From a virus (taxonomy: Duplodnaviria > Heunggongvirae > Uroviricota > Caudoviricetes), in IMG/VR virus record IMGVR_UViG_2850796239_000001: a stretch of 14,426 nt of DNA, one strand, 5' to 3'. The notes under the pieces are model-generated. The model worked only from the letters and a program-made list of their open reading frames with translations, was not told the origin of the DNA and did no database searches. The translations under genes and the position numbers were made by a program. This document shows, piece by piece, positions 1-13,589 of this stretch (the stretch's first letter is position 1; every line of letters starts with the position of its first letter).

Positions 1-240
1 TTATCCGTCCTGATTTTGCATCCACTCCACCACAAAATCAGCCAGCCCCCCAACATCATTAATATCCAGTAACGCGACATCAAGATTAAGTGACACATCA
101 CTGGCTACAGCAATAACATGTCTGTCTATCACTAATTCTTCCGGTCGATGTCCGGCTCCATCGCGAAACAGCACAATCTTTGCGATCTCTTCATGCTTAA
201 ACCCTTCGACCAGAATCAAATCCAGCTTTGAGGTATCCAT
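1..240 (-). CDS. mobB: MobB (molybdopterin-guanine dinucleotide biosynthesis adapter protein), C-terminal fragment; gene interrupted by prophage insertion
   Basis: Minus-strand ORF ending at TAA (rc of 1..3). Translation MDTSKLDLILVEGFKHEEIAKIVLFRDGAGHRPEELVIDRHVIAVASDV... matches the C-terminal part of enterobacterial MobB as I recall it. In-frame similarity continues upstream of the Met to ~264 (..DLHFLASR), then ends at stop codons (265..267, 271..273 on the minus frame). Confidence 0.8.
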   Translation of the reverse strand: MDTSKLDLILVEGFKHEEIAKIVLFRDGAGHRPEELVIDRHVIAVASDVSLNLDVALLDINDVGGLADFVVEWMQNQDG

Positions 241-282
241 TCGACTTGCGAGAAAATGTAGATCCTATGACTAGGTAATTTA

Positions 283-414
283 TTCAAGATAACCGGGAAG
301 AGATTAAAAAAGACGGGATTTGGTTGGATTCAATAACTTAGCTACTAGTTGTATTCAAGATAAAATGGGCAAGGGCCGTTTAGTTTGTTCAGAACAATAA
401 AACATTCAAGATAA
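283..414 (+). repeat. Three direct copies of TTCAAGATAA near the prophage left end; candidate transposase end-binding sites (attL L1-L3 analogues)
   Basis: Exact 10-mer at 283..292, 354..363 and 405..414 in AT-rich non-coding DNA between the prophage end and the repressor gene. A related GATTCAATAA lies at 327..336, and AACCGGGAAG at 291..300 resembles AACCGGGAGG in the Mu left end. Confidence 0.4.
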
Positions 415-508
415 AGCGTCTTGTTTATTTTGACCTTTTAAAGGCTTTTAAAACTAGCTTATCAGAAGTTGTAGAAATGGACCAAGTAAGTTAAGCACAG
501 CTAGCTGA

Positions 509-1015
509 TTATATGCTAACTGCCTTGTTGGTTAGTTGGATGAGATCGGCCTCAGCTTCATTTCCCGCCAAAATCTCTCTAACCTTTTGTTCTGACAGGT
601 TATTTAGGCTTAAAGCAGCTAATCTTCGAATACCCGTTAAACTAATCAACTCTTGGTTTTCTTGGCTGCAAAATTCGAGCAACTTTTCAACACCTTTTCG
701 TTTGAGCGTATGGATCACGATCTCTTTTTCTTGTTCGCTTAGAGAATCCATTATTTTCATTAACTCATTAGCTTTTGAGGCCTTGTTTGATGGTTTGGTT
801 GCTGTTTGCAACTGACCGCTAACAATTGCAGCGACGTGTTCAGGCAAGTCTTGCAATCGGTACGCAAAGGCCCTTCCTCTAACTCCGGGTGTTGTAACTG
901 AACGTTTTTCCCACCCCTCATTTCTTGCTCGCTTATGGAGTCCTGCAAGGGATGTGGGTAAACCGCCAACACCGAGGAGTTCACTAGCAGGCACCCATTC
1001 TTGATCTTGGATCAT
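509..1015 (-). CDS. Mu c-like repressor
   Basis: 168-aa ORF divergent from ner/A. Start ATG (rc of 1013..1015) is preceded by GGGAGG (rc of ~1022..1027). N-terminal motif WVPASELLGVGGLPTSLAGLHKRARNEGWEKR is shared with the transposase N-terminus (WVPMTELASFCGLPSSLAGLHKKAKKESWQTR), as in Mu where c and MuA share a DNA-binding domain. Confidence 0.75.
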   Translation of the reverse strand: MIQDQEWVPASELLGVGGLPTSLAGLHKRARNEGWEKRSVTTPGVRGRAFAYRLQDLPEHVAAIVSGQLQTATKPSNKASKANELMKIMDSLSEQEKEIVIHTLKRKGVEKLLEFCSQENQELISLTGIRRLAALSLNNLSEQKVREILAGNEAEADLIQLTNKAVSI

Positions 1016-1146: not shown

Positions 1147-1401
1147 GTGTTAATCGTGATTTTAGGTGAGGATTGGGATTCCGCTGATATCAAGGCTGAG
1201 CTTGAGAAGCGTGGTACTAATTTGTCTCGCTTATCGAGAGAAAATAATTTAAGGCCAAGAACGTTAGGTAATACTTTGCGAGTCCCCTATTTAAAGGGAG
1301 AAGGGATTATTGCGCAAGCTATTGGAGTTCAACCAGAGGTTATTTGGCCAACCAGATATGAACGTCGCTCACGGAGGAAAAATGTGGGTTCCAATGACTG
1401 A
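1147..1401 (+). CDS. ner: Ner-like DNA-binding protein (Ner/Nlp family)
   Basis: Translation ..EDWDSADIKAELEKRGTNLSRLSRENNLRPRTLGNTLRVPYLKGEGIIAQAIGVQPEVIWPTRY.. aligns with Mu Ner (..RDWHRADVIAGLKKRKLSLSALSRQ..PKGEQIIANALETKPEVIWPSRY). Start is uncertain (GTG 1147 or GTG 1156). Stop TGA at 1399..1401 overlaps the transposase start. Confidence 0.85.
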   Translation: MLIVILGEDWDSADIKAELEKRGTNLSRLSRENNLRPRTLGNTLRVPYLKGEGIIAQAIGVQPEVIWPTRYERRSRRKNVGSND

Positions 1402-2056
1402 ATTAGCTTCATTTTGTGGATTACCTAGTTCACTTGCGGGTTTGCATAAGAAAGCTAAAAAAGAGTCATGGCAGACACGTCTTAAAGCTGGGGTTAAGGG
1501 ACGTGTTGTTGAGTGCGAAATAAACTCTTTACCTATTGTTATTCAAAAGGCACTGCGTGAACGCTATGTGGCACAGTTGGTGGCTACAGAGAACAATGTT
1601 TCTGAAGTGAAAGCTGTTACCAGAAAAACACGCAATCCTGATGCTGTCCAGGCAATCGAAGCATATCGCGGTTCGCCACAACTGATGGAAGAACGCCTGA
1701 ATGCGCTGACCGAAAACCAGCGTCGGGTATCTGAAGCAAGGGCTGCGCTGGTGGTGGAAGTGCTGAAGCTGGAAAGCGCCGGTAACCTCGGGCGACTGAA
1801 AGCCATTAACTTTCTTGTTGAAAAAGCCCGTAAAGGTGAGCTGCCGGAGCGCCTGCAACAGGCCGCAGTTAACGCCAATGCAAAACGTGGCGCTAATCGT
1901 ACTATCAGCCGCGATCCACTTTACCAGTGGGTTCTGAAATACAACCAGTCGCAGAACGCCGCCGAACGGCTGCTGTTACTGGCACCGGGAAAACGCGACG
2001 AAATAAAACCGGAAGAAATCAGCTGGCTGCCTGAATTTCTGGCGCAGTATCGCTAG
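1382..2056 (+). CDS. MuA-like transposase, N-terminal DNA-binding portion, ending at an in-frame TAG
   Basis: ATG at 1382 is preceded by GGAGG (1374..1378). The ORF-track start at 1310 overlaps ner and lacks an RBS. Ends at TAG 2054..2056, in the same frame as the next ORF. Confidence 0.8.
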   Translation: MWVPMTELASFCGLPSSLAGLHKKAKKESWQTRLKAGVKGRVVECEINSLPIVIQKALRERYVAQLVATENNVSEVKAVTRKTRNPDAVQAIEAYRGSPQLMEERLNALTENQRRVSEARAALVVEVLKLESAGNLGRLKAINFLVEKARKGELPERLQQAAVNANAKRGANRTISRDPLYQWVLKYNQSQNAAERLLLLAPGKRDEIKPEEISWLPEFLAQYR

Positions 2057-3466
2057 GTGAACGGCAGACCCATGTCAGAAGCCTACGAGGATTTTGTCGC
2101 AGAATGGCAGCGTCGCCATGCGGACGAACCGTACATGCTGGAGGTGATGCCTTCCTATGATGTTGTCCGGTATGCCATGAAAAAACTGCCGGAAGTGGTG
2201 AAACAAAAAGGGCGCGTTACCGGCAGTGAATACCGTCAGCTTGAAGGATTCACCCGCCGCGACTGGACAGCTATGCCGGTGAATTATGTCTGGATTGGTG
2301 ACGGTCACGGTATGAAGCTGAAATGTGCGCATCCGATCCACGGGCGTCCATTCTCACCGGAAGTCACGTTTGTGATCGATGGTGGAACACGGTTTGTTGT
2401 TGGCTGGAGTCTTGACCTTGCCGAAAACGTGTTCGCCGTTGCCGGTGCGATACAGCACGGCATTCGCAACCACGGAAAACCGTTCCTGTATTACTCGGAT
2501 AACGGTTCCGGTGAAACGGCTGACATGCTGGACAAAGAGGTCGTGGGTATTCTGCCACGCCTGGGGATTAAACACCCTACCGGTATTGCCGGTAATCCAC
2601 AGGGACGCGGCATTATTGAACGCCTGAACCGGACACTGCCGATGCGTATAGCCAGGAGGTATCGCACCTATTTTGGCAAGGGTGCTGACCGGGAATCGTT
2701 GCGTGTACTTAACCGTGATCTGCGTTCAGCGTTTAACTCCCTGCAACAGGACAAGCCTCTGAACGACCGCCAGAAAGCGGCAATGCGCGAGCTGCCATCG
2801 TGGGCGGAGCTTATTGAGGCTATTCGTGAAGGCGTGGAATGGTACAACAACCGCCCGCATTCTGAGCTGCCGATGAAACCGAACGGACGGCATTACAGCC
2901 CGGCAGAGTTCAGAAAAAAACGCCTGGCAGAAGAAGACACCGAAATTGAGTGGCTGAGTGATCTTGAGCTGCGCGACATGTTCCGCCCAATGGTGGAACG
3001 ACCGGTAAGACGCTGCGAAATTCAGTGGCTGAACAATATTTACTACGCGCCGGAGTTGCGTGACGAACACGGTCGCAAAGTGCTTATCAGTTATGACATT
3101 CATGACGCCGAGCGAATTACGGTACGTCGCAAGGACGGCAGCTTTATCTGTGAGGCGATATGGAACGGCAATAAACGCGCAGCCTTTGCTGTCAGTGCTG
3201 AATATCACAAACAACAGCAGCGTATTAAAGGAATGCGCAAACGCGCTGAGGAAAAAATTCGTGATGCTGAAGATGAAGGTATTCAGATTCTGGAACACAA
3301 ACAGGCTGAACCCTGGCTGAGTAATGTTTATCGCCCGGTTGGTAATGTGGTGGCAGTTCAGCAACCGGAATATGAAGAAGAGCATGACGAAGAATTTGAA
3401 CGCGATTTCCGGCTGGGGATGCAAAAACTTTTTGCCATGCAGGAAGAAGATGATCCGCTGGCCTGA
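2057..3466 (+). CDS. MuA-like transposase, DDE catalytic core and C-terminal portion
   Basis: Same frame as 1382..2056 (both coordinates are 2 mod 3), directly after the TAG. Contains DDE-type motifs VWIGDGHGMK, YYSDNGSGE and AGNPQGRGIIER typical of Mu/retroviral-integrase-fold transposases. Combined length is ~695 codons, close to MuA (663 aa). Confidence 0.85.
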   Translation: MNGRPMSEAYEDFVAEWQRRHADEPYMLEVMPSYDVVRYAMKKLPEVVKQKGRVTGSEYRQLEGFTRRDWTAMPVNYVWIGDGHGMKLKCAHPIHGRPFSPEVTFVIDGGTRFVVGWSLDLAENVFAVAGAIQHGIRNHGKPFLYYSDNGSGETADMLDKEVVGILPRLGIKHPTGIAGNPQGRGIIERLNRTLPMRIARRYRTYFGKGADRESLRVLNRDLRSAFNSLQQDKPLNDRQKAAMRELPSWAELIEAIREGVEWYNNRPHSELPMKPNGRHYSPAEFRKKRLAEEDTEIEWLSDLELRDMFRPMVERPVRRCEIQWLNNIYYAPELRDEHGRKVLISYDIHDAERITVRRKDGSFICEAIWNGNKRAAFAVSAEYHKQQQRIKGMRKRAEEKIRDAEDEGIQILEHKQAEPWLSNVYRPVGNVVAVQQPEYEEEHDEEFERDFRLGMQKLFAMQEEDDPLA

Positions 3467-3541: not shown

Positions 3542-4108
3542 ATGACTGATATTGATGATGTTTTCAACACTATTAACGCTTTGATTAACGAGGGCGACAA
3601 GTCTCAGGAAGATATTGCTGATGAAGCCGGAATGTCTCCGGCAACACTCTCGGCTCTGCGTAAAGGAGAGTACAACGGTAATGTCGAAGGTATGCATGAC
3701 AAATTACAGAAATGGTATCAGGTCTGGCAGAAGGGACAGAACTTGTCAGGTACCCCTGGTGTTGTGAAGACCCAGACATTTTGTGATTTGCATGAGCTGT
3801 TTAAAACAGTGCGCTCACTCGGGATTATCAGTGTCGTTGTTGGCGTACCGGGTGTCGGAAAAACCTTTGCTGCCCGGGAATATTGTCGCAGGACAGCTAA
3901 TGCCTGGATGGTGACTCTTGCTCCGGCACATTCGAGCGTAACGGAATGCCTCCTTGAAATAGCATATGCGCTGGAAATTAATAATCCGGGAAGAAATAAG
4001 GGGAATGTAACCCGCGCCATTCGCAGAAAACTGGGTGGTGGTAAAGAAACCAGTGGCCGTGTTAACCCCCTTCTGATTATTGATGAAGCTGAGGTGTACT
4101 GGCAATAG
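3542..4108 (+). CDS. MuB-like transposition ATPase, truncated after the Walker B motif by IS insertion
   Basis: ATG 3542 with GAGGA (3531..3535). Walker A GVPGVGKT and Walker B LLIIDEA. Aligns with Mu B (..GNPGVGKTEAAREY.. LVIIDEAD..). The last codons (EVYWQ, stop) are encoded by the IS terminus starting at 4090. The ORF is 188 aa against ~312 aa for Mu B. Confidence 0.85.
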   Translation: MTDIDDVFNTINALINEGDKSQEDIADEAGMSPATLSALRKGEYNGNVEGMHDKLQKWYQVWQKGQNLSGTPGVVKTQTFCDLHELFKTVRSLGIISVVVGVPGVGKTFAAREYCRRTANAWMVTLAPAHSSVTECLLEIAYALEINNPGRNKGNVTRAIRRKLGGGKETSGRVNPLLIIDEAEVYWQ

Positions 4109-4132
4109 CGGACACTACCATTTGTTCTTTTT

Positions 4133-4819
4133 TTAAGCAGCCATCTGATGATATTTTTCCCTGAAGGCTGCCGGGGAGATATTCCCCAGACGAGAGTGAC
4201 GACGCTGACGATTGTAGAAAATCTCAATGTATTCCCGTATTACTGAGATGGCTTCATCCCGGTTATTAAAACGATAGTGGCTCAGGCTCTCATTTTTCAG
4301 CGTTCCCCAGAAGCTTTCCATCGGAGCGTTGTCGTAACAGTTACCTTTACGCGACATTGATGTTTTCAGACCAAACTGCTCCTGTATGACCCGGTAATCG
4401 TATGCGCAGTACTGTGAACCTCGATCAGAGTGGTGGATTAGCCCGGCAGGTGGGCGCTGGCTCCTGAGCGCCATAAACAGGGCTTTACCTGTCAGCTCTT
4501 TTGTCATGCGCTCTCCCATGGCGTAGCCGACAATTTCGCACGTATAAACATCTTTGATGCCAGCGAGGTACAACCATCCCTCCTGTGTGGCAACATACGT
4601 CAGGTCCGCCACCCAGACCTGATTTGGTGCTGTAGGAGCGAACGTCTGGTTCAGCAGATTTGGCGCAACTGGCAGATTGTGGTTCGGGTTCGTAGTCGCT
4701 CTGAACTTGCGTTTCTGCTTACAGCGTAGCCTTAGCTCCTTACGAAGACGTGCCAGTCGGTCACGACCAACGATGATGCCATTCTCTGCCAGCTCCGTCT
4801 GGAGCCGCCCGGGTTCCAT
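4133..4819 (-). CDS. IS3-family transposase OrfB, C-terminal catalytic part (frame-disrupted copy)
   Basis: 228-aa ORF containing the IS3-group DDE core (..WVADLTYV.., HHSDRGSQY, SMSRKGNCYDNAPMESFWGTLKNE). It is out of frame with the orfB N-terminal segment at 4761..4952. Confidence 0.85.
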   Translation of the reverse strand: MEPGRLQTELAENGIIVGRDRLARLRKELRLRCKQKRKFRATTNPNHNLPVAPNLLNQTFAPTAPNQVWVADLTYVATQEGWLYLAGIKDVYTCEIVGYAMGERMTKELTGKALFMALRSQRPPAGLIHHSDRGSQYCAYDYRVIQEQFGLKTSMSRKGNCYDNAPMESFWGTLKNESLSHYRFNNRDEAISVIREYIEIFYNRQRRHSRLGNISPAAFREKYHQMAA

Positions 4820-4952
4820 ATGTTTCGCGAGTGCGGATATGTGCCACCTTAATCTCCAGTTTTAGCCGCTCATCACTTTGTTTTCTGTCTGAGGGTTCAT
4901 GCTGTACCCAGTTGTAATAACCGCTCCTGGATACACCAAATACCTGACACAT
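4761..4952 (-). CDS. IS3-family OrfB N-terminal segment, separated from the rest of orfB by a frame change
   Basis: MCQVFGVSRSGYYNWVQHEPSDRKQSDERLKLEIKVAHIRTRETYGT then out-of-frame tail. It lies in the -1 frame relative to orfA, as expected for programmed frameshifting, but +1 relative to 4133..4819. Confidence 0.5.
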   Translation of the reverse strand: MCQVFGVSRSGYYNWVQHEPSDRKQSDERLKLEIKVAHIRTRETYGTRAAPDGAGREWHHRWS

Positions 4953-4987
4953 CGCTTCAATGGGAAATTGTTGTCGCCATTGTTCGA

Positions 4988-5250
4988 TTAACGCGTATTT
5001 TTCAGCGACTCCTGTGCAAAATACGCTGTTGCTTTTTTTAATATATCTCGCTCAAGGCGAGCTTCATTTAACGCCTTACGCAGTTGCAGAATTTCAGATT
5101 CCAGTTCAGCCACCGTGCGGGAACCAGGAGTACCGAGCCCTTTTCTGGCGGCGGTAACCCATTGTCCTAAAGTGCCTTCAGGAAGGGATAATCGGGAAGC
5201 GCCTTCACTGATCGAAAGTTGATTTTCAAGAACCGTTCTGACAGCTTCGG
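4988..5250 (-). pseudogene. IS3-family orfA, 3' portion; the 5' portion (codons 1-15) lies at 8006..8052 on the other side of the IS66-family insertion
   Basis: Manual minus-strand translation ..VRTVLENQLSISEGASRLSLPEGTLGQWVTAARKG..LERDILKKATAYFAQESLKNTR* continues the MSRKTQRYSKEFKAEA fragment. A-run slippery site (A7 at rc of ~5033..5039) lies near the orfA end. Confidence 0.75.
5243..5250. repeat. 8-bp target-site duplication (GCTTCGGC), left copy, flanking the IS66-family element
   Basis: Identical 8-mer at 5243..5250 and 8006..8013 immediately outside the element's terminal inverted repeats. Confidence 0.9.
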
Positions 5251-5283
5251 CGTAAGCGCCCCGAGAAGTACGTAGCGTAAGGA

Positions 5284-6885
5284 TTATTTTACAGACGAGA
5301 AGTTCCAGGGCAGCAGTTCATGCACTTGGTTCGACGGCCAGTCATTGAGCTTCTCGATCACTTCGCGCAACCAGTCCTCCGGCTCCACTTCGTTCTGTTT
5401 GCAGGTGACCAGCAGACTGTAGATGATCGCCGCACTTTCTCCTCCCTTGTCTGAGCCGAAAAAGAGATAATTTTTTCTTCCAACCGCCACCGATCGTAAC
5501 GCGTTTTCACCGATGTTGTTGTCTATTTCCACCCAGCCGTCACGACAGAACTCGTTCAGCGCATTCCAGTGATTCAGGATATAGTCGAACGCCTTCGCCA
5601 TCTCCGCATGTTTCGACAGCGTTTTCCTCTGCAATTGTATCCAGTCGTACAACGACTGCATCAACTGGACGCTTCTGGCTTTTCTGACTGCAAGCCGTTC
5701 CTCTGCCGGACTGCCACGTATCTCCGCTTCTATGTCGTATAACTCTGCTATCCGTCTGAGCGCTTCCTGAGTCATTTCTGTCGGACGGCGCACATCCTCG
5801 TCATGGATTTTTCGGCGGGCGTGGGCCAGGCACCCGGCTTCCTTCACCCGGCCCGTTTCGTACAGTACGTTATAACCTGCATAGGCATCAGCCTGCAGTA
5901 CGCCCTGATACTTTGCCAGGTGGAGCTGCGGATGTTCTCCTTTGCGATCTGCCGAATACGCGAACCAGACGGCTGCCGGCAGGGATGAACCCGCATTACG
6001 ATCATCCCTGACGTATACCCACAGACGACCCGTTTTCGTCTTTCCGTTCCCCGGGGCCAGTACTTTCACCGGAGTGTCATCTGCGTGCACCTTTCCTGCC
6101 TCCAGAACATAGTCATTCAGCGCTATATACAGAGGACGGAGTTTGTCTGCCATTTCTGATACCCAGCGCACCATGGTATTACGGCTCAGCTCCACGCCCT
6201 GTCGCGCGTATATTTCTGACTGGCGATATAAAGGGATATGTTCCATATATTTGCTGACCAGGATCCGTGCAAGTAACCCTGCACTGGCATAACCGCGTTC
6301 GATCGGTTTAGGGGGAAGTGGTGCCTGAACGATGACATCACACCGGCTACAGGCCAGTTTGGGACGTATGGTTTCGATAACTTTAAAGGCGGTATTAATG
6401 ATATCCAGTTGCTCTGAGATTGTTTCCCCCATTTCTTTCAGAACACCTCCACAGGCCGGGCAACTGGTTTCAGCAGGCAGAAGGCGATGTGTCTCCCGGG
6501 GAAGTTCTGCCGGCAGCGGTTTTCGTGAAGATTTTCGTCCCGGGGATTCAGGCTTACTGGCGATCGGGTTTTCTGACGGGGGACTGGTGTCAGGTGAATC
6601 TGTGACTGACGATGCATCTTCCAGAAGATTTCTGGCTGTGTTCAGCCGGTTTTCCAGTTCCGACAGTCGTTTTTCTGCCTGTCGGATCTGATTTTCAAGC
6701 TTATGACGCTTTTTCTCTGAACTCTGGCCGAACAACATACGACGCAACCTGTCGAGTTGCGCTTTCAGCCGTTCAATTTTCTGCTCATAGCCCGCGACCT
6801 GACAGGCATACTGTCGAAGCCGACTCTGTTGCTTACGCAACATGGCTTTAAGCAGCTCAATATCATCGGGGAGTTCATTGTTCAT
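5284..6885 (-). CDS. tnpC: IS66-family transposase TnpC
   Basis: 533-aa ORF with N-terminal coiled-coil/leucine-zipper-like region, a CxxC...CxxC zinc-finger region (SCPACGG ... CSRCD) and a large catalytic domain typical of IS66 Orf3. Confidence 0.9.
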
Positions 6886-6904
6886 TCCCTTGTTTTATCA
6901 CGGG

Positions 6905-7252
6905 TTATATCCGGATGCCAGGCCGTTCTGTCCGTTTGGGATGTTGCCACGCGATCCCCTCCAGTAGCATGGATAACTGAGCTGGCGTCAGGTGCACTTT
7001 CCCTTCCCGGGTCACCGGCCAGACGAAGCGGCCCCGTTCCAGGCGTTTGGCGAACAGGCATAACCCGTCACGATCGGCCCACAGTATTTTCACCATTTTG
7101 CCACTGCGGCCCCGGAAGACGAAGATATGCCCGGAGAACGGGTCATCTTTCAGCGTGTTCTGCACCTTCGAAGCCAGGCCATTGAAGCCACAACGCATAT
7201 CTGTGATGCCAGCGATGATCCAGATTTTGGTACCGGTCGGCAGCGTTATCAT
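6905..7252 (-). CDS. tnpB: IS66-family TnpB (Orf2)
   Basis: 115-aa ORF (MITLPTGTKIWIIAGITDMRCGFNGLA...) typical of IS66 Orf2; its start overlaps the tnpA stop as ATGA at 7249..7252. Confidence 0.9.
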   Translation of the reverse strand: MITLPTGTKIWIIAGITDMRCGFNGLASKVQNTLKDDPFSGHIFVFRGRSGKMVKILWADRDGLCLFAKRLERGRFVWPVTREGKVHLTPAQLSMLLEGIAWQHPKRTERPGIRI

Positions 7253-7923
7253 CGGATACCCCCTTTCATTTCGCGGATTAGCGCCCGTAACAGTTCCGGA
7301 GTGAGAGGGTCAAACAGTTTTACCACACCTGATTTAAGATGCAGCTCGCACCGTGGGACGTTTCCGGGAGCCCCCTCAGGGCGCTCATCATGCTTGTTAC
7401 GCCAGAAGGGATTTGTAACTGGTCTGGTCGGCTCCGGCGTATCAGTCAGTGCCACCGGGACAGGCATGCATTCCTGTATGTCATCATCGCTCAGTAAGCC
7501 GTCCTCGTACTGGCTTTTCCATTTAAACAGCAGGTTATTATTGATATCGTGTTCTCTGGCGATCCGGGCAACAACAGCCCCAGGCTGTAACGCCTGCTTA
7601 GCCAGACGGACCTTAAATTCACGGCTATAGCTGGTTCGCCGTTCTTTTCGCCATGAGCCTTCTCTGATTTGAGGCTCTGTTAATTCCTTCTTTCTGTTGG
7701 CATAAAGGATGGCGTCAAGTTGAGCGAATGAAACTGAATCGGGCAATGGCCATGCGATACCGGATGCAAGAAATCGCTGAAAAAGCGTATGTATTGTGGA
7801 ATGACTGAGACCCAGACGCTGAGCGATGGCCCGGATGGTCAGTTTATCTTCAAATCTTAAACGCAGGGCATCAGGCAAATAAGAACGGAAGCAGGGAATA
7901 TCTTTTGTTGTCTGGGAATTCAT
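7249..7923 (-). CDS. tnpA: IS66-family TnpA (Orf1) with N-terminal helix-turn-helix extension
   Basis: 224-aa ORF with HTH-like segment LTIRAIAQRLGLSHSTIHTLFQRF and the IS66 Orf1-like motif RRTSYSREFKVRLAKQALQPGAVVARIAREHDINNNLLFKWKSQY. Confidence 0.85.
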   Translation of the reverse strand: MNSQTTKDIPCFRSYLPDALRLRFEDKLTIRAIAQRLGLSHSTIHTLFQRFLASGIAWPLPDSVSFAQLDAILYANRKKELTEPQIREGSWRKERRTSYSREFKVRLAKQALQPGAVVARIAREHDINNNLLFKWKSQYEDGLLSDDDIQECMPVPVALTDTPEPTRPVTNPFWRNKHDERPEGAPGNVPRCELHLKSGVVKLFDPLTPELLRALIREMKGGIR

Positions 7924-8005
7924 CGTTCGTGTCCATCAATATAGATGGGCGCGATTGTTGCCAGACAGGACAATTTTCACAAGACGTCGCTGATGGGGCG
8001 CTTAC

Positions 8006-8013
8006 GCTTCGGC
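8006..8013. repeat. 8-bp target-site duplication (GCTTCGGC), right copy
   Basis: Identical to 5243..5250; it lies within IS3-family orfA codons K-A-E-A (rc GCCGAAGC). Confidence 0.9.
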
Positions 8014-8212
8014 TTTGAACTCTTTAGAGTAACGTTGGGTTTTTCTGCTCATTATTAGCTCCTTCTGATGCCATTCTATTTCAGGAAGGAGTGTCCGTTA
8101 AACTCAGGCTACCTCATCATTCCTGACCGTATTGCCTTTCTGGTGGTGTTAACCCGCCCGGACAAAACCACACTCAGAATCGAAATCACCCGTCGATGGG
8201 AGGCCACCATTA

Positions 8213-9289
8213 ATGCCGTATGAAATCCCCACGCTGGGCAAACTGATTGCCGACGGCGAAAAAGATATTGCGTATGAACTCGGCCTGCAAAAGCTGCCGC
8301 CTGTCAGTGTTGAGCAGGCGCTGAACGTGTCATTCAGCAGTCAGGTCCGGGATTTATACGACCATCAGAGCTGGATTAAGGACCAGATAATCCCGTCCAC
8401 CACGTCTGATGATGAAACCATTATCAAAACAGCAAAGTATGAAGGGGTTATCCGCAAGCAGGCCACCTTTGCCAGCGGGCGGGTGACCTTCACCAGTCAG
8501 TCCCCCCTTCCGGCAGAAACCCGGATGCAGTCCGACACGAACCAGGTGTATCAGGTACTCACGTCCGGCGAGGTGCAGGACGGCGAGGTCACCGTCATCG
8601 TGCAGGCTGAAGAAGCCGGTGTGGCGGGCAATCTTGCTGCCGGTGCCGTACTCACCCTGCTGTCCCCGCTGCCCGGAACGGCCAGCACAGGCGCGGTGGC
8701 TGAAGGTGGCATCACCGGTGGCGCAGACACTGAATCCATCGCAGCGCTGCTGGACCGTCTGCTGTATGTGCGCCGCAATCCACCGACAGGCGGCGCGTTG
8801 CATGACTACGTGATATGGGCGCGTGAAGTGCCGGGCGTCAGCCGCGCGTGGGCGTGGGATGCATGGCACGGCCCCGGCACGGTCGGGCTGGCATGGCTTT
8901 ATGATGACCGGGAAAACATCGTGCCAACCCGCGAAGACCTGAAGACAATGGAGCAGTATCTGTTCTGCCACAAACACCCGGCCACGGGCGTGATGGTGGG
9001 TAAACCGGGCGGCATTGAGGTCTGGCCGGTACAGGTCAGGCTGAAGAAAGTCAGCATATCCATCCGTCTGACACCGGACAGCCTGGCGAACAGGAGCGCC
9101 GTCCGGGCAAACCTGACCGCGTTACAGAAGACACTGGCACCCGGTCAGACGCTGCCGGTGTCCTCGCTGCGCACGGCCATCGGTATGACGTCCGGCATCA
9201 CGGATTACTTCCTTAACATCGGGGAGGACACCACCAGTGATGTGGATGAGCTTATCACCATCGGGGAGGTGACATGGCTCACAGCGTGA
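8213..9289 (+). CDS. Baseplate J-like protein (Mu gp47 family)
   Basis: 358-aa ORF; ATG 8213 preceded by GGGAGG (8198..8203) with a TAATG overlap to an upstream frame. Size, composition and position before gp48/S/U fit the Baseplate_J family; the call is from memory of the family, not an alignment. Confidence 0.8.
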   Translation: MPYEIPTLGKLIADGEKDIAYELGLQKLPPVSVEQALNVSFSSQVRDLYDHQSWIKDQIIPSTTSDDETIIKTAKYEGVIRKQATFASGRVTFTSQSPLPAETRMQSDTNQVYQVLTSGEVQDGEVTVIVQAEEAGVAGNLAAGAVLTLLSPLPGTASTGAVAEGGITGGADTESIAALLDRLLYVRRNPPTGGALHDYVIWAREVPGVSRAWAWDAWHGPGTVGLAWLYDDRENIVPTREDLKTMEQYLFCHKHPATGVMVGKPGGIEVWPVQVRLKKVSISIRLTPDSLANRSAVRANLTALQKTLAPGQTLPVSSLRTAIGMTSGITDYFLNIGEDTTSDVDELITIGEVTWLTA

Positions 9290-9858
9290 CGGAATGGCTG
9301 GCCGCACTGCAACAGGTCATGCCACGGGGTAAGGCATGGCCGCGTGATAACGACGCGGATTTAAACCGCTTTTTAAGGGCGCTTGCAGAACGTTTAAACC
9401 GCACTGAATACGACGCCTCGCGTCTGCATGTGGAGATGCGACCGGAAACCACGCTCCGGCTGCTGCCGGAGTGGGAGCAGTATCTGGCGCTGCCGGAATG
9501 CGGAATTGCCCCCACCACCAGGGAAGCCCGCCGCCGTGCCGTGGTGGAGAAATACCGTCGCAGGGGCGGGCTGGCAACCTGGCAGACTGAAGCCGCAGCA
9601 GCGGCGCTGGGCTTCACCATTAAGGTGACAGCCGTTCTGCCGCACCACTGTCTGCGCGACTGCATGTATCCGCTGCATCCGGCGCGGTATCGCTGGATGC
9701 TGAAAGTGAACGTCCCGGGTAAAGATGCCGGGCGGTTTACCTGTATTGATGGCGTCATGACACCATTAATCAGCGAACGCACCCGTGAGCTGGAATGCCT
9801 GCTGAAGCATTACCGGCTGGCGGGCACGGAATATGAATATTATTACACCGGAGAATAA
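9274..9858 (+). CDS. Mu gp48-like tail/baseplate protein (DUF2313 family)
   Basis: 194-aa ORF overlapping the J-like gene by 16 nt; its position between baseplate J and the tail fibre matches Mu gene 48. Confidence 0.7.
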   Translation: MAHSVTEWLAALQQVMPRGKAWPRDNDADLNRFLRALAERLNRTEYDASRLHVEMRPETTLRLLPEWEQYLALPECGIAPTTREARRRAVVEKYRRRGGLATWQTEAAAAALGFTIKVTAVLPHHCLRDCMYPLHPARYRWMLKVNVPGKDAGRFTCIDGVMTPLISERTRELECLLKHYRLAGTEYEYYYTGE

Positions 9859-9861
9859 TTT

Positions 9862-10959
9862 ATGTTTTATGTGGATAACCCGACGGGTGTGCCGGTAATG
9901 CCACCTGTCGCGGCTGAATTAAGCAAAACAACGCTTTATTTCACCGAAGGCGGGAACGGTATTCCGCCCACGTATCCGGGGCCGGACTGGTTTAATATTA
10001 TTCAGTCTGAATTACTGGAAATACTCCGGCAGGCAAATATCAAACCGGATAAAAACACAACCGACCAGATTATGACAGCGCTGAAAAAACTGTTTATTAC
10101 GAACAGTGGTTCAGCCGGAGCTATTGCCGGATTAACCGGTCAGAATAATATGTTCCCGTATTTTACCGGCAAAGACACAATGGCATTAACGCCGCTCAGT
10201 GCTTTTGTTCGCGGTATTCTCGGAAAAAACAGCGCCAGCGATTTTGTTAAAGACATCGGAGCAGGCCGTGCTTTCAGTGGTTCTGTAAGTATTGGTGGCG
10301 ACAGTGGAGCCTGGACGACGGCGCAGTTTATTGACTGGCTGGATTCACAGGGAGCATTTAACCATTCTTACTGGATGTGCAAAGGCTCCTGGGCTTATGC
10401 GGGCAATAAAATCATCACCGATACCGGCTGCGGCAATATTCAGTTGGCCGGTGCAGTTGTTGAGGTAATGGGCGTCAAATCAGCCATGACCATCAGGGTG
10501 ACCACACCAACAACGGCCACGAACGGCACGACAAGCTCACAGTTCACCTACATCAACCACGGAGACGCCTACTCTCCCGGATGGCGACGTGAGTACAATA
10601 CCAGAAACAAACCAACAGCATCGGACGTGGGGGCACTCCCCGCAAACGGTAATGCGGTCTCAGCAACCAGACTCCAGACTGCCCGCAGGATTAACAATGT
10701 GCTGTTTGATGGCCCCCGCGATATCACCATCAACACCACCGAGCCCGGCGCTGTGCGTAATTTCCAGTACACCAATGAGGTGTTTTACAACCCGGGCAGT
10801 ACCACAATTACCTGGAGGTTTCGCGCACCTTCTGGCTGCCAGTTGTCAGGCATTTATGTCCAGGATACGGGAAAAAATACAGCAGACAATATCGGTGGTG
10901 TGTATTACAAACAGGCTCAGATTTATATCAATGGCGCATGGCGCTCTGTATCCGGTTAA
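9862..10959 (+). CDS. Tail fibre protein (Mu S-like)
   Basis: ATG 9862 with GGAG upstream. N-terminus MFYVDNPTGVPVMPP... resembles the Mu/P2-type tail-fibre N-terminal domain as I recall it; followed directly by a Tfa/U-type assembly gene. Confidence 0.75.
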   Translation: MFYVDNPTGVPVMPPVAAELSKTTLYFTEGGNGIPPTYPGPDWFNIIQSELLEILRQANIKPDKNTTDQIMTALKKLFITNSGSAGAIAGLTGQNNMFPYFTGKDTMALTPLSAFVRGILGKNSASDFVKDIGAGRAFSGSVSIGGDSGAWTTAQFIDWLDSQGAFNHSYWMCKGSWAYAGNKIITDTGCGNIQLAGAVVEVMGVKSAMTIRVTTPTTATNGTTSSQFTYINHGDAYSPGWRREYNTRNKPTASDVGALPANGNAVSATRLQTARRINNVLFDGPRDITINTTEPGAVRNFQYTNEVFYNPGSTTITWRFRAPSGCQLSGIYVQDTGKNTADNIGGVYYKQAQIYINGAWRSVSG

Positions 10960-10973
10960 TTAAGGAGAAAATA

Positions 10974-11504
10974 ATGGAACTCAGAAATGTTACGCGTTAT
11001 TACCCTGAAGGTATGCCTTATGGTGAAGGCATTCAGTATTTCCGCAGTGAAGACGGGCAGGACTTTTATGAATCCCTGGATAAATTCACGAAGAAATACA
11101 AGCTGTGCACGCATCCTGAAACCGGCGTGATTTATTCGATGGCGGAAGACGTATCCCGTCTTTATCCCGTTGGTTTTACCATTGTGGAAGTGGATGAACT
11201 GCCGGAAGGCTTTGGCATTGAAGTCTGCTGGTATTATAAAAACGGCGAAGTTCTTCCTGTTCCTGTTGATTATTTGCGGCTGGCAGAAAAACAGCGCCAG
11301 AGCCTGCTGAATGAAGCAAGGGACATCACCTCCGACTGGAAAACCGAGCTGGAGCTGGGCACCATCAGCGACGATGACAAAGCCCGTCTTACACAGTGGA
11401 TGGCGTATATCAGGGAGGTAAAGACACTGGATTTAAGCACCGTTACTGACGAAGCCTCCTTTAATTCCATCAACTGGCCGGAGCGTCCCGATGCCGCAGC
11501 TTAA
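10974..11504 (+). CDS. Tail fibre assembly protein (Mu U / Tfa family)
   Basis: ATG 10974 with TAAGGAG (10960..10966); the ORF-track start at 10938 is upstream of the RBS. C-terminal motif ..GTISDDDKARLTQWMAYIREVKTLDLS.. matches the conserved Tfa/U motif (Mu U ..GIISDENKQKLTEWMLYAQKV..). Confidence 0.85.
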   Translation: MELRNVTRYYPEGMPYGEGIQYFRSEDGQDFYESLDKFTKKYKLCTHPETGVIYSMAEDVSRLYPVGFTIVEVDELPEGFGIEVCWYYKNGEVLPVPVDYLRLAEKQRQSLLNEARDITSDWKTELELGTISDDDKARLTQWMAYIREVKTLDLSTVTDEASFNSINWPERPDAAA

Positions 11505-12543
11505 AGGTGTGATAAAAACGCCCACGGGAGAACCGCTGGGCGGCGCAACCATTACACTGACCTCCCTGCACAATCGTGCAGGGATCCTGAAAAGTGTTTT
11601 CAGCCACGTCACCACACAGAGTGGAGAGTACGACTTCCCTGTTCTGCCGGGCGTGTACAGCGTTCGTCTGACACAGAGTGCACAGTGCCTTTCAGAAATC
11701 GGTGTCATCCGCGTTTATGAAGATTCAACGGACGGTTCGCTGAATGATTTTCTGGGCGCAACTGATATTGACCTGCGTCCGGAATCCCTGAAGAAATTCG
11801 AAGAGCTGGCGCAACAGGCGCAGCAGAGCGCCGGGGCCGCAGCCGGAAACGCACAGCAGACGGCGCAGGATGTGGCGGCAGCCGCAACGGCCCGTGATGA
11901 TGCACAACGTTTTGCGGAGAAAGCCCGACAGGATGCAACCGTCACAGCTGAGGACAGAAAGGCCACTGCGGAAGATGTGACAAGCACAGGAGCAAATGCA
12001 GCCGCAGCCGGACAGAGCGCACAGGATGCCGCAGGTTATGCCCGCGCAGCAGAACAGGCCAAAAATGACATTGATGCTGCGCTGACCGGCACTCTGAAAA
12101 TGGCTAACCATCTGTCAGAAATCGCAGCAGCAGGCGAAAAGGCACAACAGAAGTCCCGGGATAATCTGAGGCTGAAAAGTGCGGCCACGATGGAAGCACA
12201 GAGCGACATTTACGACCGGACAAAAGGCCGTCTGGCGATACCCGGCGCATTCGGCTTTGGGTGTGCTTTTCTGCCTGAAGATGTTATCCGTTTTGACACT
12301 AAGAGTGATTTCCTGGCCTGGGTAAGGAATGCGCTGCCAGGTGAATATTCCGTTGCTGGCCCCTACGGCATCATCATACCCGACACACGGTTTGAAGGGG
12401 GGCTCAGCATCCGGTGGACTGATGCACGCCCTGAGACAAGGGAACCGCGGTACAGAGCCAAATCCCTTACTTTTTACGGCATTAACGGCCCCATTTATCA
12501 CACCCGCTACTGCTACTGGCCCATATCCAGACTGACTGGGTGA
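11491..12543 (+). CDS. Side tail fibre protein (lambda Stf-like N-terminal domain with Ala/Gln-rich shaft)
   Basis: N-terminus ..KGVIKTPTGEPLGGATITLTS...GVYSVRLTQ...IRVYEDSTDGSLNDFLGA.. parallels the lambda Stf N-terminus (..SGVLKDGTGKPVQNCTIQLKA...GQYSVILQ...ITVYEDSQPGTLNDFLCA..). Followed by an AQQ/AAA-rich repeat region and the ..LSEIAAAGEKAQQKSRDNLRL.. motif common in fibres. Confidence 0.75.
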   Translation: MPQLKGVIKTPTGEPLGGATITLTSLHNRAGILKSVFSHVTTQSGEYDFPVLPGVYSVRLTQSAQCLSEIGVIRVYEDSTDGSLNDFLGATDIDLRPESLKKFEELAQQAQQSAGAAAGNAQQTAQDVAAAATARDDAQRFAEKARQDATVTAEDRKATAEDVTSTGANAAAAGQSAQDAAGYARAAEQAKNDIDAALTGTLKMANHLSEIAAAGEKAQQKSRDNLRLKSAATMEAQSDIYDRTKGRLAIPGAFGFGCAFLPEDVIRFDTKSDFLAWVRNALPGEYSVAGPYGIIIPDTRFEGGLSIRWTDARPETREPRYRAKSLTFYGINGPIYHTRYCYWPISRLTG

Positions 12544-12893
12544 AAATAAATATAGCCACAGAAGATATTATTTACAGAATCGTGGCGAGCTCTGTCCGCA
12601 ACAGATGGGGAGACCCTGACATTGGCGGGCTGATTATTGCTGCGTACCAGGGAAAAGCTGACGGTGATAAAGACATCAGACTTGTCAGGGGGCGGTCATA
12701 CAGAGGCTCACGACTGGGACCGGTGGGGATTTCAGCGCCCTGTACTCCCACCGGAACGCATATAGTATACCCACAATATTTCATTACGGGATGTTCAGAG
12801 CATTCATTACCGGGGTCATATTGCGCCCTGTCCGGGGTGCCGGATACATATGTCTCTGGCGCAATGCTTGGGCTTTTTATTCGCACATCGTGA
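12540..12893 (+). CDS. Hypothetical ORF of uncertain reality (possible fibre distal fragment or accessory gene)
   Basis: GTG-initiated 117-codon ORF overlapping the Stf stop (GTGA) and the next gene's start region. No recognisable family; the C-terminal half has atypical composition. Confidence 0.25.
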   Translation: MKINIATEDIIYRIVASSVRNRWGDPDIGGLIIAAYQGKADGDKDIRLVRGRSYRGSRLGPVGISAPCTPTGTHIVYPQYFITGCSEHSLPGSYCALSGVPDTYVSGAMLGLFIRTS

Positions 12894-12903
12894 GGAATGC
12901 ACT

Positions 12904-13470
12904 GTGGAAATTAAAAAAATCATTAATCCCCGTTATACCGAAAGTGGCGCAGTAGACTGTGACGTTTTTTTTGACGACAGGGACCAGGCAGTCCCCTACA
13001 CAGCCACCGCTGATGATGTCGCTCCGACGGGTCAGCAAATCTGGCAGGAACTGCAAAGCGGCAAATGGGGTGAGATAGCCCCATTCACTGTGACACCAGA
13101 AATGCTGGAAGCGGCCAGAGAGGCCAGACGTCAGGAAATTGAAGCATGGCGCACAGAACAGGAGGCGAAGCCGTTCACGTTTGAATGGAACGGTCGTATC
13201 TGGAATGCTGGCCCCGACTCACTGGGCCGCCTGTCCCCGGTAGTCATGCTGGCAAAATCTGTCACAGCACAAACACATATGGCGTGGAGCGATGCGGATA
13301 ATCAGCAGGTGCAGCTGACGACGCAGGAACTTGAGGAACTGGCCACAGCGATGATGCAGGCCATTGTTGAGCGCAACGATGAGATTTATCGCTGTCAGCG
13401 GGAGATGAAAGAACAACTTTCTCTGTTGCCCACACTGGACGAGGTGAGAGCGTTCAGACCAGGCGATTAA
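12904..13470 (+). CDS. Putative tail fibre assembly/chaperone protein (second, non-U type)
   Basis: ORF 12850..13470 in the track; preferred start GTG 12904 with GAGGAA (12892..12897). Position immediately after a fibre gene; the C-terminal region resembles prophage tail-fibre chaperone-like proteins, but this is a weak call from memory. Confidence 0.5.
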   Translation: MEIKKIINPRYTESGAVDCDVFFDDRDQAVPYTATADDVAPTGQQIWQELQSGKWGEIAPFTVTPEMLEAAREARRQEIEAWRTEQEAKPFTFEWNGRIWNAGPDSLGRLSPVVMLAKSVTAQTHMAWSDADNQQVQLTTQELEELATAMMQAIVERNDEIYRCQREMKEQLSLLPTLDEVRAFRPGD

Positions 13471-13492
13471 ATAATCAGTTTGTATAGTTTAT

Positions 13493-13520
13493 GACGATCG
13501 ATAGCATCATATCGATCGTC
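13493..13520. promoter_or_regulatory. Perfect palindrome with two GATC (Dam) sites upstream of com-mom; candidate methylation-sensitive repressor-binding region
   Basis: GACGATCGATA-gcatca-TATCGATCGTC (11-nt arms); GATC at 13496..13499 and 13514..13517. In Mu, a GATC cluster upstream of Pmom mediates Dam/OxyR control. Confidence 0.5.
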
Positions 13521-13545
13521 GGTTTGCATCAAGTGTGATTAAATA

Positions 13546-13589
13546 CCCCCAGCCCTCCGGGCAGCGATATCCTGTTATTACACTGGGGG
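13546..13589. promoter_or_regulatory. GC-rich dyad CCCCCAG-N30-CTGGGGG just upstream of com; candidate late-activator (Mu C-type) site or RNA structure
   Basis: CCCCCAG at 13546..13552 and its reverse complement CTGGGGG at 13583..13589; the right arm overlaps the com Shine-Dalgarno (GGGGGA, 5 nt before ATG 13595). Confidence 0.35.

What the first reader, a model, noticed from the sequence alone, without database searches (positions are those of the whole stretch)
2054..2056. Single in-frame amber codon splits the MuA-like transposase
ORFs 1382..2056 and 2057..3466 are in the same frame, separated only by TAG at 2054..2056. Read through, they give one ~695-codon protein with N-terminal DNA-binding domains and a DDE core, close to the MuA length. 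This is most simply a nonsense mutation inactivating transposition, consistent with other decay in this prophage. It would, however, be suppressed in an amber-suppressor host, and a sequencing error is also possible.
Basis: seen in the sequence. Interest (0 to 1): 0.55.

Follow-up and report, generated by a model that had tools for sequence, protein, structure and literature searches.

The report
Amber-killed transposase in dead Mu-like prophage
A single C-to-T change has turned a glutamine codon into a stop codon in the transposase gene of an already gutted Mu-like prophage of Shigella boydii; it is a real but ordinary pseudogene mutation.

Summary
TAG at 2054-2056 is the only interruption of a 694-codon frame (1382-3466). 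That frame encodes a Mu-type DDE transposase, shown by Pfam domains, a profile match and a fold match to the Mu transpososome 4FCY.

The window is 100% identical to the Shigella boydii ATCC 35964 chromosome (CP026875.1). The same TAG is present in at least three independent short-read assemblies, and its product is deposited for S. boydii ATCC 9905. It is therefore not a sequencing error.

All intact relatives carry one uninterrupted 693-698 aa gene with CAG (Gln) at this codon: 120 of 120 cluster representatives and 13 of 13 fetched CAG loci. No complete E. coli genome has the TAG allele.

The ancestral context CGC-CAG-GTG contains a Dcm site (CCAGG), and the window has CTAGG. This is the classical 5-methylcytosine deamination amber signature. 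Only 3 of 266 possible nonsense substitutions in the gene lie at such positions.

The stop falls inside a folded end-binding subdomain, equivalent to about MuA R194. It separates the N-terminal DNA-binding part from the catalytic core.

The prophage is otherwise dead. B is truncated by IS600 with a nested ISSfl3, and about 24 kb is deleted. A sister S. boydii lineage keeps CAG but has a 75-bp deletion in A.

Verdict: ordinary prophage decay, low interest.

The parts
1..265 (-). 3' half of host gene mobB (C-terminal 79 codons plus upstream codons running to the junction), disrupted by the prophage insertion
   Evidence: PF03205 MobB on the 79-aa ORF. The other mobB half lies just beyond mom on the same chromosome (L020 11701-11970). 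ATCC is duplicated at the two junctions.
266..508 (+). Left end of the Mu-like prophage, with three direct copies of TTCAAGATAA (283-292, 354-363, 405-414); these are putative transposase-binding sites
   Evidence: Homology to an independently inserted relative (E. coli RM9088, L001) starts at 266. Three inverted copies are present at the right end.
509..1015 (-). Repressor-c-like gene (168 aa)
   Evidence: PF02316 HTH_Tnp_Mu_1, E 5.6e-9. Annotated as a DNA-binding protein in relatives.
1147..1401 (+). ner-like gene (84 aa)
   Evidence: PF13693 HTH_35, E 9e-27.
1382..2053 (+). N-terminal 224 codons of transposase A: the I-alpha winged-helix domain, the I-beta-equivalent region and the first helix of the I-gamma-equivalent subdomain
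   Evidence: PF02316 at residues 7-129. PDB 1TNS (MuA I-alpha) E 4e-9. Profile alignment to 4FCY. AF2 model.
2054..2056 (+). Amber codon TAG, derived from CAG (Gln) by a C>T change at the inner C of a Dcm site (CCAGG -> CTAGG)
   Evidence: CAG in 13 related loci, TAG only in this lineage; Q in 120/120; one of only 3 Dcm-type nonsense sites among 266.
2057..3466 (+). C-terminal 469 codons of transposase A (first ATG at 2072 gives a 464-aa ORF): the rest of I-gamma, the DDE core (D307, D373, E413 in read-through numbering), the Mu-transpos_C barrel and the C-terminal tail
   Evidence: PF09299 E 1.4e-18. Invariant D/D/E. Foldseek top hit 4FCY. The 464-aa product is deposited as EFW56592.1.
3542..4108 (+). 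Truncated MuB-like ATPase gene: 182 native codons fused to 6 IS-encoded codons (intact relatives have 316 aa)
   Evidence: Homology to intact B ends at 4092. AAA_22 is found only in the 188-aa product. The intact 316-aa B with Phage-MuB_C is present in the sister lineage.
4089..8113 (-). IS600 (4089-5251 and 8006-8113) split by a nested ISSfl3 (5252-8005, 8-bp target duplication GCTTCGGC); it replaces about 24 kb of phage DNA
   Evidence: In E. coli FDAARGOS_943 the corresponding points lie about 24.3 kb apart.
8114..14426 (+). Retained late region of the prophage: baseplate J, gp48, tail-fibre and assembly genes, DUF4376 and mom (13731-14426)
   Evidence: Pfam annotations. 98% identical to the FDAARGOS_943 prophage.

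Best explanation
TAG 2054-2056 is a lineage-specific nonsense (amber) mutation, CAG(Gln225)->TAG, in the transposase A gene of a Mu-like prophage. The prophage is inserted in mobB of Shigella boydii (ATCC 35964 / ATCC 9905 lineage).

The mutation most likely arose by spontaneous deamination of the 5-methylcytosine that Dcm places on the inner C of CCAGG, giving CTAGG, which then escaped very-short-patch repair.

The stop falls inside the folded I-gamma-equivalent end-binding subdomain (about MuA R194). Translation therefore yields at most a 224-aa N-terminal DNA-binding fragment. Any product re-initiated at ATG 2072 would have the catalytic core but lack the N-terminal DNA-binding region (I-alpha, the I-beta-equivalent and the first helix of I-gamma). 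Neither fragment should be able to assemble a transpososome.

The element is independently dead: B is truncated by IS600/ISSfl3 and about 24 kb is deleted. The mutation is thus one step of neutral prophage decay.

Shown: the stop, its reality, the ancestral codon, the Dcm context, the domain position and the other lesions. Inferred: the deamination mechanism, the loss of activity and the neutrality.
For: - Sequence and frame.
- The window is identical to CP026875.1, and the TAG is identical in three other assemblies (at least 8 samples).
- Intact single-ORF orthologues have CAG: L001-L003, L008-L017, and Q in 120/120 cluster representatives of at least 76% identity.
- None of 5,426 complete E. 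coli genomes carries the TAG allele; the best match is 60/61.
- The ancestral CCAGG is present in 12 of 13 related loci. Only 3 of 266 nonsense-generating substitutions, or 3 of 62 transitions, lie at Dcm 5mC positions, and the observed change is one of them.
- CCAGG amber hotspots and VSP repair are documented in PMC12606429 and PMC2715241.
- Domain mapping: the profile aligns the motif Y-R-Q-P.KPS to MuA Y-L-R-PEKPAF in 4FCY, E 1e-25. In the AF2 model (pLDDT 88.8) the residue lies in a well-ordered loop between helices 220-227 and 235-249. Foldseek's top hit is 4FCY.
- Other decay.
- Independent decay of the same, orthologously inserted prophage in a sister S. boydii lineage: CAG is kept, A has a 75-bp in-frame deletion, and the IS content differs.
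Against: - No read data, expression data or transposition assay were available.
- Dcm activity in this strain was not checked.
- One site cannot prove a mutational mechanism; by chance, 1-5% of nonsense changes would fall on a Dcm site.
- The TAG lies inside a 1779-2101 patch in which this lineage and its sister differ at about 30 sites (a gene-conversion tract). The order of events therefore cannot be resolved: TAG before or after the patch, before or after the IS-mediated deletion.
- A host amber suppressor was not excluded.
Confidence: 0.9

Rival explanations
1. Sequencing or assembly error: the true base at 2054 is C and the gene is intact.
For: A single-base difference from relatives is the kind of change an error could produce. 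I could not inspect reads.
Against: The same TAG, in a 100% identical context, appears in a finished chromosome and in independently assembled runs: SRR1811688 (contig seen in 5 samples), SRR3793777 and DRR015921. The 464-aa downstream ORF was also deposited from the separate ATCC 9905 draft genome.
Confidence: 0.02
2. The gene is still functional through read-through: a host amber-suppressor tRNA, or programmed or leaky read-through of UAG-G, yields full-length transposase. A Gln insertion would restore the wild type.
For: The ancestral residue is Gln, which is what supE-type suppressors and near-cognate tRNA-Gln insert (own knowledge). Both open reading frames and the DDE triad downstream are otherwise intact; only one other private substitution exists, at 2738.
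Against: The stop is not conserved in any relative (0/120; CAG in 13 of 13 fetched loci outside this lineage), so it is not a programmed feature. No tRNA gene is in the window, and no suppressor is in the 20 kb around it. Suppressor alleles are rare in natural isolates (own knowledge). With B truncated and about 24 kb missing, restored A would have no phage to replicate.
Confidence: 0.03
3. The split is functional. The 224-aa N-terminal DNA-binding fragment (I-alpha plus I-beta-like) is retained as a repressor-like or dominant-negative inhibitor of co-resident or incoming Mu-like phages.
For: The fragment keeps its start codon, its Shine-Dalgarno sequence and the upstream ner-early region. It keeps the enhancer/operator-binding domain shared with the repressor. 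The same genome holds a second Mu-like prophage (L021). The allele is fixed in several isolates.
Against: There is no sign of selection. The sister lineage destroys A in a different way, with a 75-bp deletion, and keeps CAG. The stop cuts inside a folded subdomain rather than at a domain boundary. The apparent 228-aa and 464-aa 'split' products in other Shigella turned out to be contig-edge artefacts.
Confidence: 0.04
4. A natural two-gene arrangement: a DNA-binding subunit and a catalytic subunit encoded separately in this phage group.
For: Gene callers report two ORFs, and databases contain 224-228-aa and 464-aa entries.
Against: All intact relatives encode one 693-698-aa protein. The database fragments from other strains start or end at contig edges; L019 begins exactly at the CAG codon. 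The stop lies within a folded domain.
Confidence: 0.01

Closest known systems
Bacteriophage Mu transposase MuA (PDB 4FCY, 1BCO, 1TNS)
   Same: Same architecture. The N-terminal winged-helix I-alpha domain is shared with the repressor. End-binding helical subdomains, the RNase-H-like DDE core, a beta-barrel (Mu-transpos_C) and a C-terminal tail follow. Best PDB hit by profile (E 1e-25) and by fold (E 6e-18). Same gene order c - ner - A - B, and repeated binding sites at both ends.
   Different: Sequence identity to MuA is only about 15-17% outside I-alpha. A single-sequence search misses the MuA core. The core has a DD(40)E spacing. In this window the gene is interrupted by an amber codon.
Transposases of SuMu / D3112-B3-like / Yersinia vB_YpM_5 transposable phages, and Mu-like prophages of E. 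coli, Shigella and Salmonella
   Same: True sequence family: 81% amino-acid identity to Yersinia phage vB_YpM_5, 76% to Mu-like inserts in Stx phages, 42% to Haemophilus SuMu and about 30% to Pseudomonas JBD/MP38 phages. 95-99.5% nucleotide identity to prophage genes in E. coli RM9088, VL40 and FDAARGOS_943.
   Different: All of those relatives that were fetched or aligned here have an uninterrupted gene with Gln at this codon.
lacI amber hotspots at Dcm sites (Coulondre, Miller, Farabaugh & Gilbert 1978)
   Same: The same base change in the same pentanucleotide: C>T at the second C of CCAGG converts CAG (Gln) to TAG.
   Different: This is a single natural occurrence, not a measured hotspot. 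Recurrence at this site could not be demonstrated.
Laboratory Mu A-amber mutants
   Same: An amber codon in the transposase that would be conditionally suppressed in sup+ hosts (own knowledge).
   Different: This one is natural, fixed in a clinical Shigella lineage, and sits in a prophage that is otherwise deleted.
Cryptic, IS-eroded prophages of Shigella (SfMu remnants, cryptic Mu-like prophage of S. boydii)
   Same: PMC4406740 reports remnants of Mu-like prophages as common in S. flexneri and mentions a cryptic Mu-like prophage in S. boydii. The pattern here is IS600/ISSfl3-mediated erosion.
   Different: The transposase here gave no megablast match to any Shigella phage record in the phage collection. 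The element should therefore not be called SfMu.

Membership tests
Mu-type (MuA/TnsB-like) DDE transposase | N-terminal Mu-type winged-helix DNA-binding domain (I-alpha) related to the phage repressor | tested here: met
   PF02316 E 6e-12. PDB 1TNS MuA I-alpha E 4e-9 and Mu repressor 1G4D E 1e-5.
Mu-type (MuA/TnsB-like) DDE transposase | RNase-H-like catalytic core with an invariant D, D, E triad | tested here: met
   D311/D377/E417 (P0048 numbering; D307/D373/E413 in the window) are invariant in 112 representatives of at most 50% mutual identity. Core hits to 1BCO/1BCM and to retroviral integrases.
Mu-type (MuA/TnsB-like) DDE transposase | Mu-transposase C-terminal beta-barrel domain | tested here: met
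   PF09299 E 1.4e-18, above the gathering score.
Mu-type (MuA/TnsB-like) DDE transposase | Overall fold matches the Mu transpososome subunit | tested here: met
   AF2 model with pLDDT 88.8. Foldseek top hits are 4FCY_B and 4FCY_A (E 6e-18 and 1e-17), followed by TnsB.
Mu-type (MuA/TnsB-like) DDE transposase | Genomic context of a transposable phage: repressor, ner, A, MuB-like ATPase, terminal repeated binding sites, short target duplication | tested here: met
   c-like, ner-like and B genes. Three TTCAAGATAA repeats at the left end and three inverted copies at the right end. The duplicated ATCC at the mobB junctions is 4 bp certain; the fifth base differs (G/A), so a 5-bp duplication is only approximately met.
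Mu-type (MuA/TnsB-like) DDE transposase | Transposition activity | not testable with these tools
   No assay was possible. Activity is predicted to be lost because of the stop.
Nonsense-mutation pseudogene | An in-frame stop at a codon that is a sense codon in orthologues, with collinear, same-frame homology on both sides | tested here: met
Nonsense-mutation pseudogene | The allele is real (independent sequence data) | tested here: met
Nonsense-mutation pseudogene | No compensating suppressor tRNA in the host | not testable with these tools
   Only the window and a 20-kb flank could be scanned. They hold no tRNA in the window, and only tRNA-Ile and tRNA-Ala of rrnA in the flank.
Dcm 5-methylcytosine deamination mutation | C>T (or G>A) at the inner C of CCWGG | tested here: met
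   The ancestral GCCAGGT is found in 12 related loci and GCTAGGT here. This is one of 3 such nonsense sites among 266.
Dcm 5-methylcytosine deamination mutation | The host encodes an active Dcm methylase | not tested
Dcm is usual in E. coli and Shigella (own knowledge).
Dcm 5-methylcytosine deamination mutation | Recurrent independent hits at the same site (hotspot behaviour) | tested here: inconclusive
   Exact 228-aa and 464-aa fragments exist on a S. flexneri background. However, the one contig I could read starts exactly at an intact CAG codon. Control truncations at non-Dcm codons were also 'found' in 3 of 7 cases, mostly flagged partial.
Programmed stop-codon read-through / recoding | The stop codon is conserved at the site among relatives | tested here: not met
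   0 of 120 representatives, and 0 of 13 related loci outside this lineage, have a stop.

The most novel reading that the evidence does not exclude
The amber allele is not neutral. The 224-aa N-terminal fragment (enhancer/operator-binding plus I-beta-like end-binding domains), still served by the early promoter region, would act as a truncated-transposase inhibitor or immunity factor. It would do so against the second Mu-like prophage in the same genome or against incoming Mu-like phages. Meanwhile the remnant, which keeps both ends, could be mobilised in trans as a natural mini-Mu.
Probability: 0.04. Interest if true: 0.45.

Novelty: already known. Interest (0 to 1): 0.1.

Why it matters
It matters little beyond correct annotation. 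The two ORFs should be annotated as one transposase pseudogene with an internal stop, in a cryptic, IS-eroded Mu-like prophage inserted in mobB of S. boydii.

It is a clean natural example of the textbook CCAGG->CTAGG amber signature, and of parallel, independent decay of one prophage in sister Shigella lineages.

There is one practical caution. Database 'proteins' of 228 aa and 464 aa from other Shigella assemblies mimic this split but are contig-edge artefacts.

Tried and rejected
1. Recurrence of the same amber in S. flexneri. An exact 228-aa N-fragment (P0165) and a 464-aa C-fragment (P0018, P0017) exist in the protein collection. After a second homology search, the cluster representative P0017 could be read. 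Its contig L019 begins exactly at an intact CAG codon, so these entries are contig-boundary artefacts. The lead was dropped.

2. Hotspot versus control look-ups of hypothetical truncation products. Dcm sites gave 2 of 3 found and non-Dcm controls 3 of 7 found, mostly 'partial'. The test is inconclusive because of contig ends.

3. Exact-pattern scans for the TAG allele in IMG/VR and JGI metagenome contigs returned nothing.

4. The first AF2 model, built on a shallow alignment of close relatives, was unusable (pLDDT 47). It was replaced by a model from a deep alignment.

5. A single-sequence and a shallow-profile PDB search did not align the region around the stop to MuA. The deep profile did.

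6. The consensus promoter and terminator scan around the gene gave nothing above shuffled expectation.

7. I considered calling the close relatives 'SfMu-type'. I rejected this because no Shigella phage record matches this A gene in the phage collection.

8. A suppressor tRNA search was possible only in the window and 20 kb around it, and found none.

Full report
**Observation**

The bases at 2054-2056 are T-A-G in the context CAG TAT CGC TAG GTG AAC GGC. ORF 1382..2056 has an ATG preceded by GGAGG. It lies in the same frame as ORF 2057..3466. Translating 1382-3466 gives 695 codons, with one internal stop at codon 225 and the terminal TGA. Read through, the protein would be 694 aa.

**Source and reality of the allele**

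The 224-aa N-terminal product is encoded on NCBI CP026875.1 (assembly GCA_002950355.1, 5.16 Mb). The first 12,056 bases of the window, which is as far as the fetched locus reaches, are 100% identical to that record.

The neighbouring accession CP026876.1 is the plasmid of Shigella boydii strain ATCC 35964.

The same TAG, in a 100% identical context, is found in three Logan short-read assemblies: SRR1811688 (a contig seen in 5 samples), SRR3793777 and DRR015921.

The 464-aa downstream ORF is deposited as EFW56592.1, 'Phage transposase [Shigella boydii ATCC 9905]'.

A sequencing error is therefore excluded for practical purposes. None of 5,426 complete E. coli genomes has the allele; the best 61-mer match has one mismatch. 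Scans of IMG/VR and JGI metagenome contigs found nothing.

**What the gene is**

- The N-terminal piece matches PF02316 (Mu DNA-binding domain). The C-terminal piece matches PF09299 (Mu transposase C-terminal) and has a sub-threshold rve_3 hit.
- A single-sequence PDB search finds only MuA domain I-alpha (1TNS), the Mu repressor and retroviral integrase cores.
- A search of 1.84 billion representatives gave 1,556 family members.
- An alignment of 112 of them has D311, D377 and E417 invariant in P0048 numbering. These are D307, D373 and E413 in the window.
- A profile built from that alignment hits the Mu transpososome chain 4FCY at E 1e-25, and then TnsB.
- An AlphaFold2 model from the alignment has mean pLDDT 88.8. 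Its best Foldseek matches in the PDB are 4FCY_B and 4FCY_A (E 6e-18 and 1e-17), followed by TnsB of Tn7 and CAST elements.

By sequence, the protein belongs with the transposases of Yersinia phage vB_YpM_5 (81%), Mu-like inserts in Stx phages (76%), Haemophilus SuMu (42%) and Pseudomonas D3112-like phages (about 30%). It is not close to Mu itself.

**Ancestral state**

The closest intact relatives have one annotated gene of 694-698 aa. They are E. coli RM9088 (95%), VL40 (99.5%) and FDAARGOS_943 (99.4%).

The codon aligned with TAG is CAG in all 13 related loci fetched outside this lineage. The residue is Gln in 120 of 120 cluster representatives of at least 76% identity. It sits inside the invariant motif FLAQYRQ.NGRP. 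In the wide family the position is polar and variable (R 33, Q 18, K 17 of 112), within the conserved motif W..FL..Y..P.KPS.

**Mutational mechanism (inferred)**

The ancestral sequence CGC-CAG-GTG contains CCAGG, a Dcm site. The window has CTAGG.

C>T at the second C of CCAGG, converting CAG to TAG, is the classical 5-methylcytosine deamination hotspot found in lacI. Very-short-patch repair normally reverses it (PMC12606429, PMC2715241).

In the reconstructed ancestral gene, 266 single substitutions would create a stop, and 62 of them are transitions. Only 3 of these lie at Dcm 5mC positions, and the observed change is one of the three. CTAGG occurs only twice in the whole window.

This fits deamination well. 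It remains a single event, and I could not check dcm in the host.

**Where the stop falls in the protein**

The profile alignment places Y227-R228-Q229-V230 (P0048 numbering) on MuA Y-L-R-P of DAWQFLIADYLRPEKPAF, at chain index 118 of 4FCY.

If the 529-residue chain starts at MuA residue 77 (own knowledge of the construct), this is about R194. That position is early in the I-gamma end-binding subdomain.

In the model, the residue lies in a well-ordered loop (pLDDT above 90) between helices 220-227 and 235-249. It is not in a linker; the only long low-confidence stretches of the model (pLDDT below 50) are 76-89 and 637-671.

The stop therefore cuts through a folded domain. It separates I-alpha, I-beta and one helix of I-gamma from the rest of I-gamma, the DDE core and the C-terminal domains. 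A re-initiated product from ATG 2072 would lack the N-terminal DNA-binding region. Loss of transposase activity is inferred, not measured.

**Surroundings**

- The prophage is inserted in mobB. One half of mobB is at window 1-265. The other half lies just after mom on the same chromosome.
- Homology to an independently inserted relative starts at 266.
- The left end carries three TTCAAGATAA repeats, and the right end carries three inverted copies. ATCC is duplicated at the junctions.
- B is cut after 182 native codons, against 316 aa when intact. The cut is made by an IS600 that itself carries a nested ISSfl3 with an 8-bp duplication.
- The baseplate J gene follows directly. The two break points are about 24.3 kb apart in the FDAARGOS_943 prophage.

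**A sister lineage decays differently**

Other S. boydii genomes carry the same prophage at the same mobB site. They are CP119446, CP049278, CP026846 and others (loci L010-L017). An ISSfl3 has been inserted there between window positions 199 and 192.

In these genomes A keeps CAG but has lost 75 bp in frame, between 15/17-bp direct repeats at 2942-2958 and 3017-3033. B is full length, and the IS-mediated rearrangements differ.

The window and this lineage are nearly identical in the A-B region outside a 1779-2101 patch. Within the patch, about 30 sites switch: the window matches the FDAARGOS_943 type and the sister matches the RM9088 type. The TAG lies inside this patch. I therefore cannot say whether it arose before or after the conversion, or before or after the big deletion.

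Two different lesions in one orthologous gene are what relaxed selection predicts.

**A lead that failed**

The collection holds an exact 228-aa fragment ending ...AQYR on a S. flexneri background. It also holds 464-aa ORFs starting at the first ATG after the site. This looked like independent recurrence of the amber.

After a further homology search, the cluster representative P0017 could be read. Its contig starts exactly at an intact CAG codon. These entries are contig-edge artefacts.

The assemblies probably break here because co-resident Mu-like prophages become near-identical from about this point. That explanation is my inference.

Control look-ups were inconclusive. One product may be a genuine second Dcm-type amber. 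It is 518 aa long, lies on a 4.49-Mb S. flexneri contig, and ends just before a CAG in CCAGG. I could not read the DNA.

**Rivals**

- Sequencing error: excluded as described above.
- A natural two-gene arrangement: excluded by the orthologues.
- Programmed read-through: not supported, because the stop is unique to this lineage.
- Suppression by a host tRNA: cannot be excluded, but only 20 kb of host DNA could be scanned. It would also rescue a gene in a prophage that has lost most of its genome.
- A functional truncated DNA-binding fragment: not excluded, but nothing supports it.

**Verdict**

This is a real, lineage-specific CAG>TAG nonsense mutation in the transposase of a cryptic, IS-eroded Mu-like prophage of Shigella boydii. 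It carries the sequence signature of Dcm-site deamination. It is ordinary prophage decay of a known kind, and of low interest.

Noticed in passing
window 2942-3033; L010-L017 (e.g. L010 about 11560-11576): Sister S. boydii lineages carry the same prophage with CAG intact. They have a 75-bp in-frame deletion of A (25 aa inside the Mu-transpos_C region), bounded by 15/17-bp direct repeats GAAATTGAGTGGCTGAG / GAAATTCAGTGGCTGAA. This looks like a slippage-type deletion.
   Followed up: yes
window 1779-2101: A roughly 320-bp patch with about 30 differences between this lineage and the sister S. boydii lineage. The window matches the E. coli VL40/FDAARGOS_943 type and the sister matches the RM9088 type. 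Flanks on both sides in the A-B region are nearly identical. This is a gene-conversion tract between Mu-like prophages, and it contains the TAG.
   Followed up: partly
window 4089-8113: IS600 is split by a nested ISSfl3 (5252-8005) with an 8-bp target duplication GCTTCGGC. This composite sits exactly where about 24 kb of phage DNA (from the B 3' end to upstream of baseplate J) is missing.
   Followed up: yes
window 266-420 and L020 11600-11700: Both prophage ends survive. There are three TTCAAGATAA repeats at the left end (283, 354, 405) and three inverted copies at the right end. The remnant is flanked by the two halves of mobB with ATCC duplicated. Structurally it is a natural mini-Mu of roughly 14 kb, which a helper transposase might mobilise.
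   Followed up: partly
L021 (CP026875.1 1,760,093-1,780,713): The same chromosome holds a second Mu-like prophage next to a type VI secretion cluster. It encodes an identical 206-aa DUF4376 protein and Mom. Its baseplate J gene is shorter (254 aa against 358 aa). Whether it has an intact transposase is unknown.
   Followed up: no
L019 1-18; proteins P0017, P0018, P0030, P0165: Public 'proteins' of 464, 465 and 228 aa from other Shigella assemblies begin or end at exactly this codon because contigs break there. L019 starts with CAGGCGAATGGCAGACCCATG. They mimic the split gene but are artefacts.
   Followed up: yes
protein P0181 (S. flexneri, contig of 4,490,253 bp): A 518-aa product ends just before codon 519. 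On the S. flexneri background that codon is CAG inside a CCAGG created by a Leu>Gln variant. This may be a second Dcm-type amber in this gene family. The DNA could not be fetched.
   Followed up: partly
proteins P0002 and P0006 (E. coli): An E. coli lineage has the same A gene ending ...WLPEFLGNRLI, diverging 5 codons upstream of the TAG site. Several partial entries stop at ...PEFL. This is probably an IS insertion or rearrangement at that point.
   Followed up: no
L010 6018-8727, relative to window 192-199: In the sister lineage an ISSfl3 is inserted in the mobB remnant just outside the prophage left end, with an 8-bp duplication of window 192-199.
   Followed up: partly
window 271 and 2053: CTAGG occurs only twice in 14.4 kb, against 33 CCWGG sites. 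One occurrence is the amber site and the other is in the prophage terminal sequence. This is consistent with the known depletion of CTAG by VSP repair.
   Followed up: no
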